Shown: one piece after another, positions 1,036-45,290 of the stretch | Position numbering within the stretch: the stretch's first letter is position 1 | How the letters are laid out: each line of letters begins with the position of its first letter | Origin: a virus | Direction: 5' to 3' (one strand) | Virus record (IMG/VR): IMGVR_UViG_3300047160_011942 | Coordinates: 1 to 60,296 of that record | Length of the DNA stretch: 60,296 nt | Notes under the pieces: model-generated | Told to the model about the DNA's origin: nothing | Seen by the model: the letters and a program-made list of their open reading frames with translations, nothing else | Databases searched by the model: none | Made by a program: the position numbers and the translations under genes

Positions 1036-1879
1036 TCCCGTCGACTACCAACGCCGCGTCTTCGATTGGGCGCGCGAGCGTGGCATCAAGACCGTGCGAC
1101 TGGCGATCTACCAGCCCAAGGTCACCGAGGGCCCGACCTTCGACGTGCTGCCGCTGCACGAACTGGAGACCTTCGCTCGCGATCTGCAGCTCGGCATCGA
1201 ACGGTGCTTGCGAGCGGACGCGGCACGCGACCAGATGCCCGAGGATGCCTGGAACCAGGAGTTCCTCGTGGCCGAGCCCACCGAGGACGTGTGCCGCTGG
1301 TGCAAGGCCTACCCGTCATGCCCGGCCGTGCAGACGAAGATCCAGCGGGCCATGGGCGTGGGCTTCGAAGCGGTGCTCGAGGAAGCCACGGCGTTGGCCG
1401 CCGAGAACTTGACCACCTTGCAAGTGTCCGAGGCGCTGCAGGTGGTACCGCTAATCGAGGGCTGGTGCAAGGCCGTGCGTGCCCGTATGGAATCGCACCT
1501 GCTTGCCGGCGGCGACGATGACACGTGGGGGTTGGAACTCGGGCGCAAGGGCAATCGTCAGTGGGCCGACCCCGAGGTGGCCGAGGACACGATCCGCAAC
1601 AAGTTCCGCATCCCGATCCAGTCGGCCTACACGATGAAGCTGAAGAGCCCGACGCAGATCGAGGAACTCACCAAGCCGGCCAAGGACGAGAAGGGCGTCG
1701 AGATGAAGCCCATCGTCGGCCCGCGGCAGTGGAAGCTGCTGCAGGCCAACATCGTGCGCAAGGACGGCGTGCCCTCCGTCAAGCGCAAGAACGTGATCAA
1801 GGATCCCTACGTCGTTATCAAGCCGGACACCGAGGGCCTGACCCCGGTCGAGGCCGAGGACGACGATCTCGCTGACTGA
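1019..1879 (+). CDS. DUF2800-type nuclease, C-terminal part carrying the CX2CX5C cysteine cluster
   Basis: ATG lies inside the tail codons of the upstream ORF (+1 frame). Has VRLAIYQPK and CRWCKAYPSC as in the C-terminal half of Cas4-like DUF2800 proteins. Ends in DDDLAD. Confidence 0.75.
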   Translation: MTSPIDPVDYQRRVFDWARERGIKTVRLAIYQPKVTEGPTFDVLPLHELETFARDLQLGIERCLRADAARDQMPEDAWNQEFLVAEPTEDVCRWCKAYPSCPAVQTKIQRAMGVGFEAVLEEATALAAENLTTLQVSEALQVVPLIEGWCKAVRARMESHLLAGGDDDTWGLELGRKGNRQWADPEVAEDTIRNKFRIPIQSAYTMKLKSPTQIEELTKPAKDEKGVEMKPIVGPRQWKLLQANIVRKDGVPSVKRKNVIKDPYVVIKPDTEGLTPVEAEDDDLAD

Positions 1880-1911
1880 TTCCCTCAACCCCCTCCACCA
1901 AGGAGCATTCC

Positions 1912-2319
1912 ATGAACCCCGACATCCAATCCGCTGTCGACGCTCGCGCGGCCGAGACCGGCGCCTCGCGCGTCACCGCCGCCGACATCGACGCGGAGAT
2001 CGCGAGCGTGAATTTCTTCACGGCTGCGCAAGGTGAGTTCGGTGCCCGCATGTATGAGGACGGCACCACACCGATGCCCAAACCCTCGACGCTCGACCTG
2101 CTCACGCTCTGCGTGCTGGTGCTCAAGAACGGCTTCACGGTCGTGGGCAAGTCGGCCTGCGCCGACCCGCGCATGTTCGATGCGGAGATCGGCCGCAAGG
2201 TCGCGCTCAATGACGCCAAGGGCCAGTGCTGGGCGCTGCTCGGCTTCCGGCTGCGCGACGCGATCGAGAATGCGGAGAAGACCGGGCAACCGGTGATCTT
2301 CAAGCGGCCGGCCTTCTGA
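1912..2319 (+). CDS. N4 Gp49 / Sf6 gp66-like phage protein
   Basis: GKSACADPRMFDAEIGRKVALNDA core typical of the Gp49 family. GGAG SD upstream. Confidence 0.65.
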   Translation: MNPDIQSAVDARAAETGASRVTAADIDAEIASVNFFTAAQGEFGARMYEDGTTPMPKPSTLDLLTLCVLVLKNGFTVVGKSACADPRMFDAEIGRKVALNDAKGQCWALLGFRLRDAIENAEKTGQPVIFKRPAF

Positions 2320-2352
2320 TTTCCCGTTCCCCTCAACCACCAGGAGCCCAAC

Positions 2353-3000
2353 ATGGCCAAGCGTGAAATCATCCTGCCGCTCGCGCGGCTCTCCTATCCC
2401 GTCTTCGGCGCTCCCGAAGAGTTCAAGGCGGGCGACGGCAAGTTCCGTTGGGGCTGCAGCCTGTGGGTGCCCAAGTCCAACGACATCGGGCCGGCGGACA
2501 TCCTGAAGCAAGGCATCAAGAACACCGACACCCTCGCGCTCGTCGACAAGACGATCAGGGCGGTCGCGGCGGAAGCGTGGCCGAAGGACCACGCCAAGAT
2601 CCTGCCCGAGGTGCTGCTGGACAGGAAAGGCTGCTGCTGGATCGACGGCACTCGTCGCAACGAAGCCGAGGCCGAGGGCTACTGGACGCTGAGCGCCTAC
2701 CGCTACAAGAAGGACGGGCGTCCGAAGATCGTGGACTCCGACCTGTCGCCGCTCTACGACGACAAGAACGAGATCATGCCTGGCAAGGGTGGCCGCATGT
2801 ACGCCGGTTGCTGGGTGCGCGCGAAGGTCGAGATCTGGACGCAGGACAACAAGGGCGGCAACGGGTACGGCATTCGCGGCGGCCTGCTGACCGTGCAGTA
2901 CCTGCGCAAGGGCGACGCGTTCGGCGGCGCGGGTGCGGTGTCCACCGACGGCTTCGGCGCGGTCGAGGACGGCGCGGACGCGGACGACATCGCGGATTGA
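2353..3000 (+). CDS. DUF2815-type ssDNA-binding protein
   Basis: N-terminal ...LARLSYPVFGAPE... signature. Positioned between the DUF2800 nuclease and PolA as in the known DUF2800-DUF2815-PolA module. Acidic tail DADDIAD. Confidence 0.7.
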   Translation: MAKREIILPLARLSYPVFGAPEEFKAGDGKFRWGCSLWVPKSNDIGPADILKQGIKNTDTLALVDKTIRAVAAEAWPKDHAKILPEVLLDRKGCCWIDGTRRNEAEAEGYWTLSAYRYKKDGRPKIVDSDLSPLYDDKNEIMPGKGGRMYAGCWVRAKVEIWTQDNKGGNGYGIRGGLLTVQYLRKGDAFGGAGAVSTDGFGAVEDGADADDIAD

Positions 3001-3002
3001 TC

Positions 3003-3425
3003 ATGCCTCGCGAGATCTGGCGTCCGGTTGTCGGACACGAGGGGGCTTACGAAGTGAGCAACCTCGGCCGCGTCCGGTCGCTGGATCGATGGATCTGGAA
3101 GGAGGGTCCGGTTCGTGCTTACTGGGTGTTCGTTCACGGCAAGATACTGAAGCCGGGTCGATGCCCATCTGGTCACATGACAGTCGGCATCGGCAAGCGC
3201 AACACCCAGAGCGTGCATGTGCTTGTGATGCTGGCGTTCAGAGGGCCGCCCCCACCCGGGCATGAGGTACTTCACCTGAACCACACCCCCGGAGACAACC
3301 GCTTGTCGAATCTGAAATACGGAACGACCAGCGAAAACCTCAAGATGGATTACGTGGCAGGCACCCGGAAGGGTTGGAAGAACATTAGCCGGTGGAAGAA
3401 CCGCGATGCCAAACCTGTGGTTTGA
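3003..3425 (+). CDS. HNH homing endonuclease (NUMOD4 + HNH_3 type)
   Basis: WRPVVGHEGAYEVSNLGRVRS (NUMOD4-like) and VLHLNHTPGDNRLSNLKYGTTSEN (HNH_3-like). Inserted between the SSB and polymerase genes. Confidence 0.8.
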   Translation: MPREIWRPVVGHEGAYEVSNLGRVRSLDRWIWKEGPVRAYWVFVHGKILKPGRCPSGHMTVGIGKRNTQSVHVLVMLAFRGPPPPGHEVLHLNHTPGDNRLSNLKYGTTSENLKMDYVAGTRKGWKNISRWKNRDAKPVV

Positions 3426-5634
3426 TTTGGAGACGAGATCCCCCGTCCCGATCAAGGACGGGGTGCATCGCTACGCTGAACAGGCCGAGATCCTGCTGTG
3501 GGCGTATGCGATCGACGAGGGCGAGCCGGTGGTGTGGGACATCACATCAGGTGATCCCGCGCCCGACGACCTGGTGGCCGCGCTCCGCGATCCGGAGATG
3601 CTGGTCTGGGGTCAAAACGCCGGCATGTTCGACTTCGTGGTGCTGCACCACGCCGCACCCTGGTTCGAGAAGCTCGTGCCCATGATCCGCTGGCGCGACA
3701 CGATGGTGCAGGCCTACGCGCACTCGCTGCCCGGGTCGCTCGAGAAGCTGGGCGCGATCTTCGACATGGACGCCGCCGACCAGAAGCTGGTCGACGAGGG
3801 CCGCAAGTACATTCGTCTGTTCTGCATCCCGCACACGATCGATGCGGACGGCACGCCGCACTACCACGACAAGCAATCACACCCCGTCGAGTGGGCCGGC
3901 TTCATCCGCTACGCGGCGCGCGACATCAAGACCATGCGGGTGGCGCACCACAAGGCGCCGATGTGGAACTACCGCGGCAAGCAAGTCGAGCTGTGGCACG
4001 AGAACCTGCGGATGAACTACCGCGGCTTCGCGGTCGACGTGGAGCTGGCCGAGGCCGCCATCGCCGCGGCGGAGGCCGAGAAGGCGCGGCTGGCCAAGCG
4101 CACCAAGGCGGTCACGATGGGCTGGGTGGACTCCGCCACCCAGCGCGACGAGCTGCTGCGCTACATCTGCGCGGCCTACGGCGTCGAGCTGCCTGACATG
4201 CAGGCCGACACGCTCGAGCGGCGCATGGACGATCCCGATCTGCCGGCTGAGGTCAAGGAGCTGCTGGGCCTGCGCCTGCGCGCGTCGATGAACTCGCCGA
4301 CCAAGTACAAGACGGGCCTGAAGGGCATGAGCCGAGATGGCCGGCTGCGCGGCTGCGAGCAGTTCCGTGGCGCGCTGCGCACCGGGCGCTCTGGCCACCG
4401 TCTGTTTCAACCGGGCAACCTGCCGCGGCCCGCCTACAAGTGGGCGCACCTGCAGGAACTGGTGGCTGCGGTGAAGGCCGGCTGCCTGGAGTGGGTGTCC
4501 GACCACGTGATGCAGGCCTGCGCGTCGATGATCCGCTGCATGCTGATTGCGGGGCCGGGCAAGAAGCTGGTCGTGGCCGACCTCTCGAATATCGAGGGCC
4601 GCATGGCTGCGTGGCTAGCCGGCGAGGACTGGAAACTGCAGGCTTTCCGCGCTTACGATGCCGGCGAGGGTCACGACCTGTACGTGATCAGCTACTGCCG
4701 TTCGTTCGGTGTGTCACTCGATGGCGTGCCGTTCAAGGACGGCAAGGAGTTTATCGGCTTCGATAACCGGCAGATCGGCAAGGTCGAAGAGTTGATGTTC
4801 CAGTACGGCGGCGGCGTGGGCGCCTGGATCACTGGAGCTGCGACCTACGGGATCGATCTCGATGCCATGCATGCGGCGGTACGCGACACGCTGCCCGAGT
4901 GGGCGATCGATGAGGCGCGGGACTTCCTGCACTGGCTCGACGAGTGCGCAGTTGCCGAACGTGACGAGGCACTCAAGAAGTGGGCAGCGAAAAACGGCAG
5001 CGCCACGACCGCCGAGTTCCACGACAAAGTGGCGGAACTGGATGCGGCGGTCATCAAGAAGCAGGCCAAGCAGCGGTTCGGATTGAAGGATGAGGTGTGG
5101 GTCACGTGTGACGCGATCAAGCGCCTCTGGCGCCGCGCCCATCCGGCCATCGTCAGTTACTGGCGCGAGCTGGAAGACACGATCAAGGAGGCGATCGAGA
5201 ACCCGGGCCAGCCCTACAAGGCGCGCAAGGTGGTGATCCAGCGCGACGGTACATGGTTGCGCATCAAGCTGCCCTCGGGTCGGTACCTCTGCTACCCGAA
5301 TATCCGACTGAAGAACGGCAAGATCACTTACGTCGGGCCCGACACGTATTCGAAAAAATGGGGCGATGTCAACACATACGGGGGGAAGGTATTCGAGAAC
5401 ATCGTGCAGGCGGCCTCCAACGATCAGTTCATGGAACCGCTGCCGACAATCGTTGCCGCGGGTTACCTTCCCGAAATCGGGTTGCACGATGAGTGGGTCA
5501 CGGAAACACCTGACACCGAGGACTTCACAGCGAAGCGGTTAAGCGCCATGATGACGATGGATCTCGGTTGGAACGCCGGGCTCCCGCTAGCCGCTGATGG
5601 CTGGGAAGATCAAGCCTTCCACAAGGCTGACTAG
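3406..5634 (+). CDS. Family A DNA polymerase with 3'-5' exonuclease domain
   Basis: FDLETRS (Exo I), VVADLSNIEGR (motif A region), RQIGKVEELMFQYGGG (motif B), GLHDEWVTE (motif C). 742 aa uninterrupted. Confidence 0.95.
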   Translation: MPNLWFDLETRSPVPIKDGVHRYAEQAEILLWAYAIDEGEPVVWDITSGDPAPDDLVAALRDPEMLVWGQNAGMFDFVVLHHAAPWFEKLVPMIRWRDTMVQAYAHSLPGSLEKLGAIFDMDAADQKLVDEGRKYIRLFCIPHTIDADGTPHYHDKQSHPVEWAGFIRYAARDIKTMRVAHHKAPMWNYRGKQVELWHENLRMNYRGFAVDVELAEAAIAAAEAEKARLAKRTKAVTMGWVDSATQRDELLRYICAAYGVELPDMQADTLERRMDDPDLPAEVKELLGLRLRASMNSPTKYKTGLKGMSRDGRLRGCEQFRGALRTGRSGHRLFQPGNLPRPAYKWAHLQELVAAVKAGCLEWVSDHVMQACASMIRCMLIAGPGKKLVVADLSNIEGRMAAWLAGEDWKLQAFRAYDAGEGHDLYVISYCRSFGVSLDGVPFKDGKEFIGFDNRQIGKVEELMFQYGGGVGAWITGAATYGIDLDAMHAAVRDTLPEWAIDEARDFLHWLDECAVAERDEALKKWAAKNGSATTAEFHDKVAELDAAVIKKQAKQRFGLKDEVWVTCDAIKRLWRRAHPAIVSYWRELEDTIKEAIENPGQPYKARKVVIQRDGTWLRIKLPSGRYLCYPNIRLKNGKITYVGPDTYSKKWGDVNTYGGKVFENIVQAASNDQFMEPLPTIVAAGYLPEIGLHDEWVTETPDTEDFTAKRLSAMMTMDLGWNAGLPLAADGWEDQAFHKAD

Positions 5635-41758: not shown

Positions 41759-42259
41759 TCACCACCAATCGACGGCGCTCCAGACCGGCGGGTCGATCTG
41801 CAGCGTCCACCGCACACCCCCATCGGCGCCTGCGCAAATGCCCCCGATGGCGTTTGCGTCGATGGGCCAGATGGATTGCACTTGGCCGTAGGGCAGGCAC
41901 TCGTTCAAGTAGTAGACGACCTCATAGCGGCGCACGTCGTTGCTCAGCAGCACGAGCCGGTAGACCTGCCCCGAGCCCGGCCAATATTGGTAGTGATCGC
42001 CACCCACTTGCGTGGCACCGATCAGCGAGCCGTCGGGCATGACGATCAGATCGGCGAGCGGGGTGGCGCCAGTGCGCTGGCACGCGTAGGCGCGCGGTGC
42101 GCAGAAGGTGTACAGGACGACGGGCCGGTGGTCATCGATGGCGAGGATCTGGCCGCCGTTGTAGGCGCCCCCCGTGGGCGTGGCGAGGTAGGTGGTGGGC
42201 GCGGCAGCCGAGGTGGCCGCAAGCAGGGTGAAAGCGACGAAGGCGAGAAAATTCCGCAT
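41759..42259 (-). CDS. Secreted/periplasmic Cys-containing protein (moron-like)
   Basis: Sec-type signal peptide MRNFLAFVAFTLLAATSAAA-P. 5 Cys in the mature part. GGGAG SD. Inserted between TerL and portal. Confidence 0.6.
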   Translation of the reverse strand: MRNFLAFVAFTLLAATSAAAPTTYLATPTGGAYNGGQILAIDDHRPVVLYTFCAPRAYACQRTGATPLADLIVMPDGSLIGATQVGGDHYQYWPGSGQVYRLVLLSNDVRRYEVVYYLNECLPYGQVQSIWPIDANAIGGICAGADGGVRWTLQIDPPVWSAVDWW

Positions 42260-42304: not shown

Positions 42305-44857
42305 TCAGCCTTTCGACCAGATGATGCGGCGCTGTTGCTGCGGCCGCACACGCGCGACCGTCACCTTCCTGTCGATGAGGTCGGGGATGAAGGACAGCGC
42401 GAGCGAGTCCGCGCGGTCGGGCGACTTCACGCCGCGCTTCTTGGCGTCCTTCTTGGTTTCGAGTTGGATGCGGAGCTTCCCGTCATAGCCGTACTGCAAG
42501 CTCGTGCACTGGTCGGACAGGTCGTCGTCATCAGGCACCTGCGCAGTCTCGAGCCAGTCGCGCATGCGCCCCCAAGCCTCGGAGCGCTGGTTGAAATACT
42601 GCTTGTCGTCCTTGGCGGGGTTGCCCCACGTGACCGGGATCAGCGGCATGGGCAGGTTGGCCCGCCGGAGCATGGCGTCCAGGTCGGCGCCGTTACCCAC
42701 GGCGTCGTAGGCGATGCACGAAATGGGCGAGTCGCCGATAGGTAGCGAGTTGTCCTTGACCTTGCCCGCGCGCCGCACGATCTCGAGCACCCGGCCGGCG
42801 ACGTCGGGCCCGTCGAAGCCGGCCATGGCGACCTGCCACCATAGCCGCGCACCCTGGCGCAGGGAGATGACCGTGAAATCGTCGCCGAAGCGCGCCGGGT
42901 CGATCGAGAGCACCTTCTGGTAGATGCGCACGCGCTCGAACTCGATGCGACGCTTGCGGGCTTCGACGAGCAGCCCAGGGGCGATAAAGTTGTCGTAGCC
43001 CGAGCGCGGGAACATGCCCTTGACGCGCACGCGCACGAAGTCGGAGTCCTCCCCGTACTCGTCGATCCAGGCCTGGATCTGCCGCTTGTTGGTGAACGAG
43101 ACGCGGCGGCTGTCCACGCGGCTGACGTGGTGTGCCTCGCCGGCCTTGGGGGTGCGGTTGCACTGCTTGAAGAACTCGCCCGAGGTGCGCGTGGGGTTGC
43201 CGTAGCGCATCCACAGGATCTGCGTCTTCGCGTCGGTCAGCGCGCCGCGCGTGACCGTCCAAATGTTGTCGTGGATGTTCGAAGCCTCGTCGAACACGAC
43301 CACGATGCGCTTGCCCTGGTTGTGCATGCCGGCGAAGGCCTCGGTCTTCTCGGCCGACCACGGCACCTGGTCGATCCGCCACTGCTTGGCGCGGTCGGCG
43401 TCGTTGGCGATGTACAGGCTCGTGGCAGTGAGCGTGAAGAGGTGGCGCGCGATGAACATGCCATGCCACTTCGCCAGCTCGGCCCAGGTCTTCGTGCGCA
43501 GCTGGAGGTCCGTGTTCGCGGTCACGACGCCGCGCGTGTCGGGGAAGGTGGAGATCGCCCAGAGCAGGAACATGCCCACCTGACCGGAGTTGTGCGTGAC
43601 GATGAAGTCGTTGGCCTGGTACAGGCCGTCCTCGGCCTCCACCGAGATGCACATGCCGTGCGCTGCAGGCGCGATCGGCTCGATCGAGTCGATCCATCGA
43701 GTCAGGTAACGCGACTCACTGGGCTTGTAGGCATCACGTCGATGCGCGATCGTGAAGGGGTTGAAAGGCGCATTGATCGTCACGCGCCAGCAGCCCTTGC
43801 ACGGGACGCGCTCGCCGTTCTTGACGTACCACGCGCACTTGACGGTGGGCTGCATCATGGCTTTGCAGCCCAAGCTGCGCGCCAGCCAGATCACATCCTC
43901 GGCCAGTTGCTTGCTGGTCGTCGAGTAACCGATGGAGCCTGAACTGTTCACCTCACCATCGGCGTCCATCAGCCCGTCGAACAGCGCGCGGCGGTTCCCG
44001 ACGGTGTTGAACTTGTACTCGTCGGGGATATAGCGCTCGCTGCTATAGCACTCGAAGACACCGCCCGTGAAGATGTGCAGCGCACCCCGCAGGTACTGCT
44101 GCATCCCGTCAGCGCAGGTCGTGACTCCGTAGCCACACGCCTCGACACGCGCTTTCACTTCCGCGTGCGGTTTCGTGTAGGCAGGCCGTGCCCGACTCCC
44201 GTCGCCTAGCCACACACCCATCACGTAGGGGTGCAGCGCCGTGGGCTGCTTGACGAACTTCGCGGGACCTTGTTGCGGGATCTCCCATTGACGTGCCTGT
44301 GCCACACCGTTGGCGCGCTTCACGCCGCGGCGCAGGATGTCGATCGTCTCAAGCGTGCGCCACGTGTCGAGTTTCTTGCGGCGCTCCTGGCGGCCGCGCA
44401 CGTTCCACAGATGGCCTGAGCTGACATCGCACGTGCTGCCGTCGTCGAACGTGACGCGGTACATCGGCACGTTCGTGAAGTGGTGCGTTTGCACGACTCG
44501 CGTCACATGGCCGTCGGCGTCGAACACCAGATCCCCGAGTGTGAGATCGCCGTGCCGACGCAGACCTTCAGGCGTGGGCACGAGGGTGTCGTCCGCGAGC
44601 AGCTTGCCAATGCCGTGGCCAGAGGCGACGTCTTCCTCGATCACGCAGCCCTGCTCGCCACCTTGCTGGATCTCCAGCGACACGCGACGCTGCTGGTCGG
44701 CCTGCCATTCCTCAGGTCCGCTGAAATCCTCCAGCGGCGTGTCGGGCTCGCCCCATGGGAACGCCCAATGCGTCCAGCCGATCCAGTTGTCGTGGAACGA
44801 GGCGAGCTTGTCGAACAACTCGTCGATGGGCGTGCCGCGGATGAGGGAGTCCGTCAT
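42305..44857 (-). CDS. Terminase large subunit, interrupted by an intein (850 aa precursor, about 512 aa after splicing)
   Basis: Walker A VASGHGIGK/S is split by the insert. Walker B-like VVVFDEAS. C-terminal nuclease region. The Arg-rich upstream extension to 45181 was rejected as coding. Confidence 0.9.
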   Translation of the reverse strand: MTDSLIRGTPIDELFDKLASFHDNWIGWTHWAFPWGEPDTPLEDFSGPEEWQADQQRRVSLEIQQGGEQGCVIEEDVASGHGIGKLLADDTLVPTPEGLRRHGDLTLGDLVFDADGHVTRVVQTHHFTNVPMYRVTFDDGSTCDVSSGHLWNVRGRQERRKKLDTWRTLETIDILRRGVKRANGVAQARQWEIPQQGPAKFVKQPTALHPYVMGVWLGDGSRARPAYTKPHAEVKARVEACGYGVTTCADGMQQYLRGALHIFTGGVFECYSSERYIPDEYKFNTVGNRRALFDGLMDADGEVNSSGSIGYSTTSKQLAEDVIWLARSLGCKAMMQPTVKCAWYVKNGERVPCKGCWRVTINAPFNPFTIAHRRDAYKPSESRYLTRWIDSIEPIAPAAHGMCISVEAEDGLYQANDFIVTHNSGQVGMFLLWAISTFPDTRGVVTANTDLQLRTKTWAELAKWHGMFIARHLFTLTATSLYIANDADRAKQWRIDQVPWSAEKTEAFAGMHNQGKRIVVVFDEASNIHDNIWTVTRGALTDAKTQILWMRYGNPTRTSGEFFKQCNRTPKAGEAHHVSRVDSRRVSFTNKRQIQAWIDEYGEDSDFVRVRVKGMFPRSGYDNFIAPGLLVEARKRRIEFERVRIYQKVLSIDPARFGDDFTVISLRQGARLWWQVAMAGFDGPDVAGRVLEIVRRAGKVKDNSLPIGDSPISCIAYDAVGNGADLDAMLRRANLPMPLIPVTWGNPAKDDKQYFNQRSEAWGRMRDWLETAQVPDDDDLSDQCTSLQYGYDGKLRIQLETKKDAKKRGVKSPDRADSLALSFIPDLIDRKVTVARVRPQQQRRIIWSKG
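43589..44602 (-). mobile_element. Intein (338 aa) with LAGLIDADG homing endonuclease; class 3 (WCT) features
   Basis: Starts LLADDTLV directly after GHGIGK and ends VTHN followed by Ser. SSGHLW (block B with Trp), GMCISVE (block F Cys), THN (block G Thr). LAGLIDADG motifs VMGVWLGDGS and LFDGLMDADGEV. Confidence 0.85.
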
Positions 44858-44954
44858 GCGGTGAGCCGGGATCTCCAGCGGCGGCGTGCGGTAGGCGGGA
44901 AGCTGGCGCGCCAGATCGGCGACCGACGGGTTGAACCGCCGATCGCTGTTGCCA

Positions 44955-45290
44955 TCAGGCACTGGGCGCGACAGGCGGCGTGGCGACCGCCGCGGCCGCT
45001 GCCTGCGCCACGGACGTCGGGTCGACCGGCGGCGCAGCCGCGGGCGTGGCCGCCCCGAGCGGTGAAGCCGCCAGGGCCTTGACCGCGGCGGCCGCAGCAT
45101 CCTCGGGCGTGGCGGGCGCCGGCGCGTCGGGGTCGTGCCGAGGCTTCTGGGCCTGCTGCAGTTGCTGGTTGATCTCGGCAATCGCGGGCGCCGCGATCTT
45201 GTAGGGGGCTTCCTGCAACGCCATGTTGATGGCGTTCAGGCACTGCGGCGACAGATTCAGATTGAAGGTGCCGGGGATGGGTTGCTGCAC
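44955..45290 (-). CDS. Hypothetical protein (Ala/Pro-rich C-terminus)
   Basis: ORF between TerS and TerL. Protein-like N-terminal half. Confidence 0.4.
   Translation of the reverse strand: MQQPIPGTFNLNLSPQCLNAINMALQEAPYKIAAPAIAEINQQLQQAQKPRHDPDAPAPATPEDAAAAAVKALAASPLGAATPAAAPPVDPTSVAQAAAAAVATPPVAPSA

What the first reader, a model, noticed from the sequence alone, without database searches (positions are those of the whole stretch)
43589..44602. Class-3-type intein with LAGLIDADG endonuclease splitting the terminase P-loop
Seen in sequence:
- The TerL Walker A is GHGIGK, then a 338-aa insert, then S.
- The insert starts with non-nucleophilic Leu (LLADDTLV) and ends THN before Ser+1.
- It carries Trp in block B (SSGHLW), Cys in block F (GMCISVE) and Thr in block G (VTHN).
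- It has two LAGLIDADG motifs (VWLGDGS, LMDADGEV).

Established knowledge: the WCT triplet with no Cys1/Ser1 defines class 3 inteins. These splice through a block-F cysteine branched intermediate and were proposed to be of phage origin.

Inference: packaging ATPase activity here depends strictly on protein splicing. A Leu1 variant would be an informative natural example of the class 3 mechanism.
Basis: partly seen in the sequence, partly recalled or inferred. Interest (0 to 1): 0.62.

Follow-up and report, generated by a model that had tools for sequence, protein, structure and literature searches.

The report
Class 3 intein in terminase P-loop
The only DNA-packaging enzyme gene of this complete phage genome is interrupted inside its ATP-binding loop by a 338-residue self-splicing, mobile protein element, which is real and looks functional but belongs to a kind already well described in phage terminases.

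Summary
A 1014-nt in-frame insert (window 44602-43589, minus strand) lies exactly between Lys and Ser of the TerL Walker A. Twenty-four intein-less homologues read GHG[IV]GK-S across the same point.

The insert folds as a HINT splicing domain plus a LAGLIDADG endonuclease (AlphaFold pLDDT 93; PI-SceI is the best fold match). Its best sequence matches in the PDB are the experimentally proven class 3 DnaB inteins. Their His65, Trp67, Cys124 and Thr143 align with His64, Trp66, Cys318 and Thr336 here.

In 96 intein-bearing homologues, His, Cys, Thr, His and Asn are invariant and Trp is present in 95. Residue 1 is A, L, G, V, Q, M, H or R, never Cys, Ser or Thr.

Leu1 is not special. It occurs in 28 of the 96 homologues and in the Gordonia phage APunk TerL intein.

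Class 3 inteins in terminase P-loops were reported in 2010. A 32%-identical relative, Baka TerL1-b, has been shown to splice and to cut DNA. This scan has also reported the same kind on other DNA.

Verdict: a new member of a known kind, of low interest. Splicing itself was not tested here.

The parts
42305..44962 (-). terL precursor gene. The likely start is GTG 44962 and the stop codon is 42305-42307. It encodes 885 aa, or 547 aa after splicing.
   Evidence: ORF listed. Homologue N-termini align upstream of ATG 44857. PHROG terminase large subunit families match. It is 38% identical end to end with the annotated TerL of Salmonella phage 66FD.
44603..44962 (-). N-extein coding part. It ends with the first half of Walker A, GHGIGK (44620-44603).
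   Evidence: G, H, G, G and K are invariant in alignment A1.
43589..44602 (-). Intein of 338 aa, Leu1 to Asn338: a HINT splicing domain with an inserted LAGLIDADG homing endonuclease.
   Evidence: Boundaries come from intein-less homologues. The AF2 model has pLDDT 93.4. Foldseek matches PI-SceI with TM 0.68 and E 1.9e-17. Pfam LAGLIDADG_3 and Hom_end match.
44405..44422 (-). Block B, SSGHLW. His64 is codon 44413-44411 and Trp66 (B:12 of the WCT triplet) is codon 44407-44405.
   Evidence: These residues align with His65 and Trp67 of the class 3 MchDnaB1 intein. His is present in 96 of 96 homologues and Trp in 95 of 96.
44195..44215 (-). First LAGLIDADG motif, VWLGDGS, with its acidic residue intact.
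   Evidence: The Asp is conserved in 90 of 96 homologues.
43949..43972 (-). Second LAGLIDADG motif, LMDADGEV, with its acidic residue intact.
   Evidence: The Asp is conserved in 95 of 96 homologues. The motif aligns to PI-SceI.
43637..43657 (-). Block F, GMCISVE. Cys318 (codon 43651-43649) is the proposed initiating nucleophile.
   Evidence: It aligns with the catalytic Cys124 of MchDnaB1. It is present in 96 of 96 homologues.
43586..43600 (-). Block G, VTHN (Thr336, His337, Asn338), followed by Ser+1 (43588-43586), which is also the Walker A Ser.
   Evidence: It aligns with Thr143-His144-Asn145 of MchDnaB1. Thr, His and Asn are present in 96 of 96 homologues. Residue +1 is Ser in 91 and Thr in 5.
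42308..43588 (-). C-extein: the rest of the ATPase (Walker B VVVFDEAS, GNPT) and the nuclease domain (IDPARFGDD, SPDRAD).

Best explanation
This is a full-length class 3 intein, made of a HINT splicing domain and a LAGLIDADG homing endonuclease. It sits in the Walker A P-loop of the phage's only large terminase, between Lys-1 and Ser+1.

Inferred mechanism, by homology with the Bethlehem DnaB and mycobacterial DnaB-1 inteins:
1. The block F Cys318, activated by His64 and positioned by Trp66 and Thr336, attacks the Lys-Leu1 peptide bond. This gives a thioester branched intermediate on the intein.
2. Ser+1 takes over the N-extein by transesterification.
3. Asn338, helped by His337, cyclises and releases the intein.
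4. An O-to-N shift restores the GHGIGKS P-loop.

Only after these steps can TerL bind ATP and package DNA. The side chain of residue 1 (Leu) has no chemical role.

At the DNA level, the endonuclease domain probably cuts intein-less terL alleles during co-infection and copies the element in (homing).

Shown here: the anatomy, the exact boundaries, the fold, the alignment of the catalytic residues, their conservation, and the decoupling of intein history from extein history. Inferred only: that splicing happens, that it goes by the class 3 route, and that the endonuclease is active.
For: - **Boundaries.** Twenty-four intein-less homologues read GK|S across the insertion point. The DNA of an empty allele matches the joined window flanks at 42 of 60 nt.
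- **Sequence matches.** The best PDB matches are class 3 inteins: MchDnaB1 (6RIX, E 2.3e-15) and Msm DnaB-1 (6BS8). Blocks A and B and blocks F and G both align. His65, Trp67, Cys124 and Thr143 fall on His64, Trp66, Cys318 and Thr336 (residue roles from PMC7664689).
- **Same P-loop site.** Those DnaB inteins sit at the same kind of site, GVGK|...|STLG (PMC5222942).
- **Conservation.** In 96 homologues His, Cys, Thr, His and Asn are invariant and Trp is present in 95. Residue +1 is Ser or Thr. Residue 1 is A47, L28, G9, V6, Q2, M2, H1, R1 and never Cys, Ser or Thr.
- **Fold.** The model has pLDDT 93.4. It matches PI-SceI and other intein endonucleases, and it matches the class 3 DnaB inteins over the N-terminal splicing lobe at rmsd 1.2 A and 38% identity.
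- **Experimentally tested relative.** The Baka TerL1-b intein is 32% identical over the full length. It was shown to splice and to cleave an intein-less terL (PMC5050341).
- **Mobility.** Intein-bearing and intein-less alleles are interleaved in the extein tree. Pairwise intein identity is essentially uncorrelated with extein identity (r = 0.09). Mean identity is higher for inteins (0.55) than for exteins (0.48).
- **Endonuclease.** Both LAGLIDADG Asp residues are intact, and the endonuclease domain is as conserved as the exteins.
- **Single copy.** The genome is complete and carries one terL.
Against: - There is no experimental evidence for this particular protein. The class 3 route cannot be told from a direct attack by Ser+1 using sequence alone.
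- Grafting WCT onto a class 1 intein did not give splicing (PMC7664689), so the triplet alone is not sufficient.
- General domain libraries do not recognise the splicing domain. Pfam Hint_2 reaches only E 0.09, below its cut-off, and no NCBIfam intein splicing model matches.
- Coordinates of the model were not available, so the distance from Cys318 to the scissile bond was not measured.
Confidence: 0.86

Rival explanations
1. The element splices, but by a class 2-like route. Ser+1 attacks the Lys-Leu1 peptide bond directly, and Cys318 is only structural.
For: Residue 1 is not a nucleophile and a +1 nucleophile is present. These features are shared by classes 2 and 3.
Against: Known class 2 (KlbA) inteins lack the WCT triplet (PMC2807308). 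Here Trp, Cys and Thr are essentially invariant in 96 homologues. They align to the catalytic residues of proven class 3 inteins.
Confidence: 0.05
2. The element is a decayed or non-splicing insert. Either this phage's TerL is dead, or it tolerates the insert as a permanent domain.
For: Splicing was not tested. An Arthrobacter class 3-like intein is reported to be a pseudogene (PMC3196547, title and abstract).
Against: All splicing residues and both endonuclease Asp residues are intact. The reading frame is open over 2.6 kb. The genome is complete with one terL. The catalytic positions are invariant across 96 homologues while other positions vary. A Walker A loop cut by 338 residues could not bind ATP.
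Confidence: 0.05
3. It is an ordinary class 1 intein whose true boundaries differ, with a Cys or Ser at position 1.
For: None was found.
Against: Intein-less homologues fix the boundaries to the residue. None of the 96 homologues has Cys, Ser or Thr at residue 1. The first Thr is at residue 6, and starting there would leave LLADD inside the P-loop.
Confidence: 0.01

Closest known systems
Class 3 DnaB-1 (DnaB-b) mini-inteins of Mycobacterium smegmatis, M. leprae and M. chimaera (PDB 6BS8, 6RIX; PMC5222942, PMC7664689, PMC6195587)
   Same: They are the best sequence matches. The P-loop insertion is the same, GK|intein|S. The same His, Trp, Cys and Thr-His-Asn residues align one to one, and residue 1 is not a nucleophile. 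The class 3 mechanism was demonstrated for these inteins.
   Different: They are mini-inteins of about 140 aa without an endonuclease. They lie in a bacterial helicase and begin with Ala. The non-catalytic Cys48 site of MchDnaB1 aligns with Met47 here (read by me from the alignment).
Mycobacteriophage Bethlehem DnaB intein, the class 3 prototype (PMC2807308)
   Same: The architecture and residue spacing are almost the same. Bethlehem has 341 aa with His65, Trp67, Cys320 and Asn341. This intein has 338 aa with His64, Trp66, Cys318 and Asn338. Both carry a LAGLIDADG endonuclease and both are of phage origin.
   Different: Bethlehem has Pro1 and Thr+1, a helicase as host protein, and a different insertion site (Gln-1).
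TerL P-loop inteins of actinobacteriophages: Baka TerL1-b (PMC5050341) and Gordonia phage APunk TerL (bioRxiv 10.1101/2025.01.02.630785)
   Same: Both are full-length WCT inteins with LAGLIDADG domains in the TerL Walker A, 32-33% identical over the whole length. The Baka intein was shown to splice and to cut an intein-less allele. By my reading, the APunk intein starts with Leu after GK and is followed by Ser+1.
   Different: The TerL families are unrelated or only distantly related (the terminase_1 type), and the hosts are actinobacteria.
TerL of Salmonella phages 66FD, 65FD and PAT1 (Uetakevirus; MT580117)
   Same: The TerL family is the same (38% identity end to end). The insertion site is the same, GHGIGK|...THN|S. 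The intein is orthologous at 39% identity and carries W, C and T.
   Different: Residue 1 is Ala. The GenBank record lists only 'terminase large subunit' under the match. I found no paper that describes this intein.

Membership tests
Intein (HINT splicing domain) | In-frame insertion absent from orthologous alleles, at a conserved site of the host protein. | tested here: met
   Twenty-four intein-less homologues read GHG[IV]GK-S. An empty-site DNA allele was found.
Intein (HINT splicing domain) | HINT fold with blocks A, B, F and G, a terminal His-Asn and a +1 nucleophile. | tested here: met
   The model has pLDDT 93.4. Foldseek matches PI-SceI and DnaB inteins. Thr-His-Asn followed by Ser is invariant.
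Intein (HINT splicing domain) | Protein splicing actually occurs. | not testable with these tools
   This needs expression of the precursor. It is supported only by the conservation of catalytic residues and by the experimentally spliced Baka TerL1-b relative.
Class 3 intein | Residue 1 is not Cys, Ser or Thr. | tested here: met
   Residue 1 is Leu here. In 96 homologues it is A, L, G, V, Q, M, H or R.
Class 3 intein | WCT triplet: Trp at B:12, Cys at F:4 and Thr at G:5. | tested here: met
   Trp66, Cys318 and Thr336 align with Trp67, Cys124 and Thr143 of MchDnaB1. They are present in 95, 96 and 96 of the 96 homologues.
Class 3 intein | Ser or Thr at +1. | tested here: met
   Residue +1 is Ser here. 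In homologues it is Ser in 91 and Thr in 5. The criterion comes from PMC2807308.
Class 3 intein | Obligate block F Cys branched intermediate. | not testable with these tools
   This is a biochemical criterion, tested by mutating Cys318 and trapping the intermediate.
LAGLIDADG homing endonuclease (intein-borne, PI-SceI type) | Two LAGLIDADG helices, each with its acidic residue, in an alpha-beta-beta-alpha-beta-beta-alpha fold. | tested here: met
   Pfam LAGLIDADG_3 (30.8 bits) and Hom_end (26.1 bits) score above their cut-offs. Both Asp residues are present. The fold matches PI-SceI and I-DmoI.
LAGLIDADG homing endonuclease (intein-borne, PI-SceI type) | Cleaves the intein-less allele. | not testable with these tools
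   This is inferred from the sporadic distribution of the intein and from intein history being decoupled from extein history.
Terminase large subunit | N-terminal ATPase (Walker A and B) plus a C-terminal RNase H-like nuclease, encoded next to terS and the portal gene. | tested here: met
   PHROG TerL families match. The protein is 38% identical to the annotated 66FD TerL. terS (Pfam Terminase_2) lies upstream and an SU10-type portal gene downstream. No Pfam terminase model reached E 0.01 on the spliced sequence.

The most novel reading that the evidence does not exclude
This family would be useful if it behaves as a natural mutational scan. It is one orthologous class 3 intein at one site in hundreds of metagenomic terminases. 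Residue 1 takes eight different non-nucleophilic side chains, including bulky and charged ones, while the WCT residues never change. If residue 1 tunes the rate or the conditions of splicing, the intein could act as a timer or a redox or temperature gate on the onset of DNA packaging, rather than as a neutral parasite.
Probability: 0.1. Interest if true: 0.45.

Novelty: new member of a known kind. Interest (0 to 1): 0.2.

Why it matters
The main value is for annotation.
- General domain libraries see only the LAGLIDADG part. The GenBank record of the related Salmonella phage 66FD lists only 'terminase large subunit' under the match.
- Such a gene is easily read as an oversized or odd TerL. In fact the mature enzyme is 547 aa and depends on splicing.

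The family is large and diverse, and residue 1 varies freely in it. That makes it convenient comparative material for the class 3 mechanism and for intein homing among phages. It does not change what is known about either.

Tried and rejected
- **Pfam and NCBIfam on the precursor and the intein.** Only the endonuclease domains pass their cut-offs. Hint_2 reaches E 0.09, and no intein splicing model matches. Class assignment therefore rested on PDB and homologue alignments.
- **Spliced TerL against Pfam and PDB sequences.** There were no significant hits. TerL identity rests on PHROGs, on the annotated Salmonella phage TerL and on gene neighbourhood.
- **A second intein or a second terL.** Neither was found.
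- **An antisense-encoded endonuclease, as in other TerL inteins noted by this scan.** I set this aside by judgement, not by a test. The intein carries its endonuclease in frame, and I took the long plus-strand ORFs over this region to be the kind a 65% GC sequence throws up.
- **A redox switch like that of Msm DnaB-1.** The partner Cys site is Met47 here, and the other Cys residues are poorly conserved except Cys271 (93%) and Cys268 (68%). No case could be made.
- **Composition as evidence of foreign origin.** Intein GC3 is 0.825, against 0.85 for the N-extein and 0.93 for the C-extein. The difference is small and inconclusive.
- **Tori and Perler 2011 (PMC3133030).** The paper is not held. 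The supplementary tables of Tori 2010 are not held either. I could not check the InBase list of residue-1 identities. The Leu1 precedent comes from my own reading of the APunk sequence.
Full report
**What is there**

The window is a complete virus record of 60,296 bp with direct terminal repeats. It holds a single terL. On the minus strand lie a Terminase_2 small-subunit gene (46883-46083) and a long ORF (45181-42305). Further downstream is an SU10-type portal gene (41557-39389).

- GHGIGK at 44620-44603
- a 338-aa insert, LLADDTLV...VTHN, at 44602-43589
- Ser at 43588-43586

The likely start of the gene is GTG 44962, not ATG 44857. The collection's gene call is 885 aa. Homologue P0052 aligns with residues upstream of ATG 44857 (RFNPSV.DLA). 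With that start the intein is residues 121-458 and the mature TerL has 547 aa, in the size range of the intein-less homologues (520-634 aa).

**Boundaries**

A search of 5.8 billion proteins gave 2,738 hits. Of the 120 best, 96 carry the insert and 24 do not.
- The 24 without it read GHG[IV]GK directly followed by S[AC].
- The closest extein relative of all, P0020 (74% identity), lacks the insert.
- Its DNA matches the joined flanks of the window at 42 of 60 nt across the junction.
- Neither end of the insert repeats a flanking residue.

The boundaries are therefore fixed to the residue: Lys-1, Leu1...Asn338, Ser+1. A class 1 reading with shifted boundaries is excluded.

**What kind of element it is**

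Pfam recognises only the endonuclease part, LAGLIDADG_3 and Hom_end, both above their cut-offs. Hint_2 stays below threshold, and NCBIfam gives only weak matches to intein-bearing proteins.

Against PDB sequences, the best matches of the single sequence are the class 3 DnaB inteins. The same holds, more strongly, for a 14-member profile of the family.
- The top matches are M. chimaera MchDnaB1 (6RIX, E 2.3e-15) and M. smegmatis DnaB-1 (6BS8).
- Next come the engineered gp41-1_WCT intein and PI-SceI.
- Both halves of the splicing domain align.
- By my count on the alignment, His65, Trp67, Cys124 and Thr143-His144-Asn145 of MchDnaB1 fall on His64, Trp66, Cys318 and Thr336-His337-Asn338.
- PMC7664689 names Cys124-His65-Thr143 plus Trp67 as the class 3 active site.
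- The mycobacterial DnaB-1 inteins sit at the same kind of P-loop site, GVGK|...|STLG (PMC5222942).

I built an AlphaFold2 model of the intein with ten extein residues on each side, using 95 aligned sequences. It has pLDDT 93.4 and pTM 0.91. Foldseek matches it to PI-SceI (TM 0.68, E 1.9e-17), to other endonuclease-bearing inteins, and to I-DmoI. It also matches the class 3 DnaB inteins over the N-terminal lobe at rmsd 1.2 A and 38% identity.

**Conservation**

Across the 96 intein-bearing homologues:

| Position | Residues found |
|---|---|
| His B:10 | His in 96 |
| Trp B:12 | Trp in 95, Phe in 1 |
| Cys F:4 | Cys in 96 |
| Thr G:5 | Thr in 96 |
| Penultimate His | His in 96 |
| Terminal Asn | Asn in 96 |
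| +1 | Ser 91, Thr 5 |
| Residue 1 | Ala 47, Leu 28, Gly 9, Val 6, Gln 2, Met 2, His 1, Arg 1 |

Residue 1 is never Cys, Ser or Thr. This is the co-variation that defines class 3 (PMC2807308). It also shows that the side chain of residue 1 is chemically idle. The two LAGLIDADG Asp residues are kept in 90 and 95 of the 96, and both are intact here.

**Mobility**

- In a tree of the exteins, intein-bearing and intein-less alleles are interleaved within the window's own subclade. Examples are P0001 with P0020, P0004 with P0074, P0005 with P0097 and P0014 with P0117.
- Over 600 random pairs of intein-bearing proteins, intein identity is essentially uncorrelated with extein identity (r = 0.09). Inteins are on average more alike (0.55) than their host proteins (0.48).
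- The endonuclease domain is as conserved as the exteins.

This pattern fits an element that moves between divergent terL alleles by homing. One caveat applies. The top-120 list was ranked with an intein-bearing query, so presence and absence can be compared fairly only within the closest clade.

**Mechanism**

The shown and inferred steps are set out under Best explanation. In brief, Cys318 makes the first attack, Ser+1 takes over the N-extein, Asn338 cyclises, and the GHGIGKS loop is restored. Because the genome has one terL and the insert separates the Walker A Lys from its Ser, packaging should depend on splicing. Nothing here tests the chemistry. PMC7664689 shows that the WCT triplet alone is not sufficient to make an intein splice.

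**Comparison with what is known**

- Tori et al. [quoted passage not shown]
- Kelley et al. 2016 catalogued TerL P-loop inteins in mycobacteriophages. They showed that the Baka TerL1-b intein splices and cleaves an intein-less allele. That intein is 32% identical to ours over its full length and carries the same W, C, T, H and N residues.
- A 2025 preprint counts 287 class 3 inteins in actinobacteriophages, almost all of them in TerL and Cas4.
- Gordonia phage APunk TerL reads ...SQVGK|LVAHDTPVPTP...PTHN|S. This shows Leu1 in an intein that the preprint places in its class 3 tree.
- The nearest cultured relatives are Salmonella phages 66FD, 65FD and PAT1. They have the same TerL family, the same site and an orthologous intein with Ala1. 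Under the match, the 66FD record lists only 'terminase large subunit'.
- This scan has reported class 3 TerL P-loop inteins on other DNA before. One of them shares sequence words with this intein.

**Verdict**

The finding is a new member of a known kind. The Leu1 feature is common in the family and is not informative on its own. Interest is low.

Noticed in passing
window 44857-44962 (minus strand): The terL start is probably GTG 44962 (885 aa) rather than ATG 44857. It overlaps by 8 nt the end of an upstream 111-aa Ala/Pro-rich ORF (45290-44955) that has no Pfam match.
   Followed up: partly
homologue P0085 (1196 aa): This TerL homologue carries the same class 3 P-loop intein. It also appears to have a second, class 1-type insert (Cys1 ... 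SGN|S). That insert follows DVARFG, the position where this window reads IDPARFG|DD in the nuclease region. So one terminase holds two inteins of different classes.
   Followed up: partly
window 41759-42259 (minus strand): A 166-aa ORF lies between terL and the portal gene. It has no Pfam match.
   Followed up: no
window 43589-44602 compared with 42308-43588: GC3 of the intein is 0.825, against 0.93 in the C-extein and 0.85 in the N-extein. This is a mild compositional difference and is not decisive for recent acquisition.
   Followed up: partly
L001 (Salmonella phage 66FD, MT580117) 1246-3696: The 817-aa 'terminase large subunit' of this cultured Uetakevirus contains an orthologous WCT intein (Ala1) at the same GHGIGK|S site. 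No intein feature is listed in the record over this stretch.
   Followed up: partly
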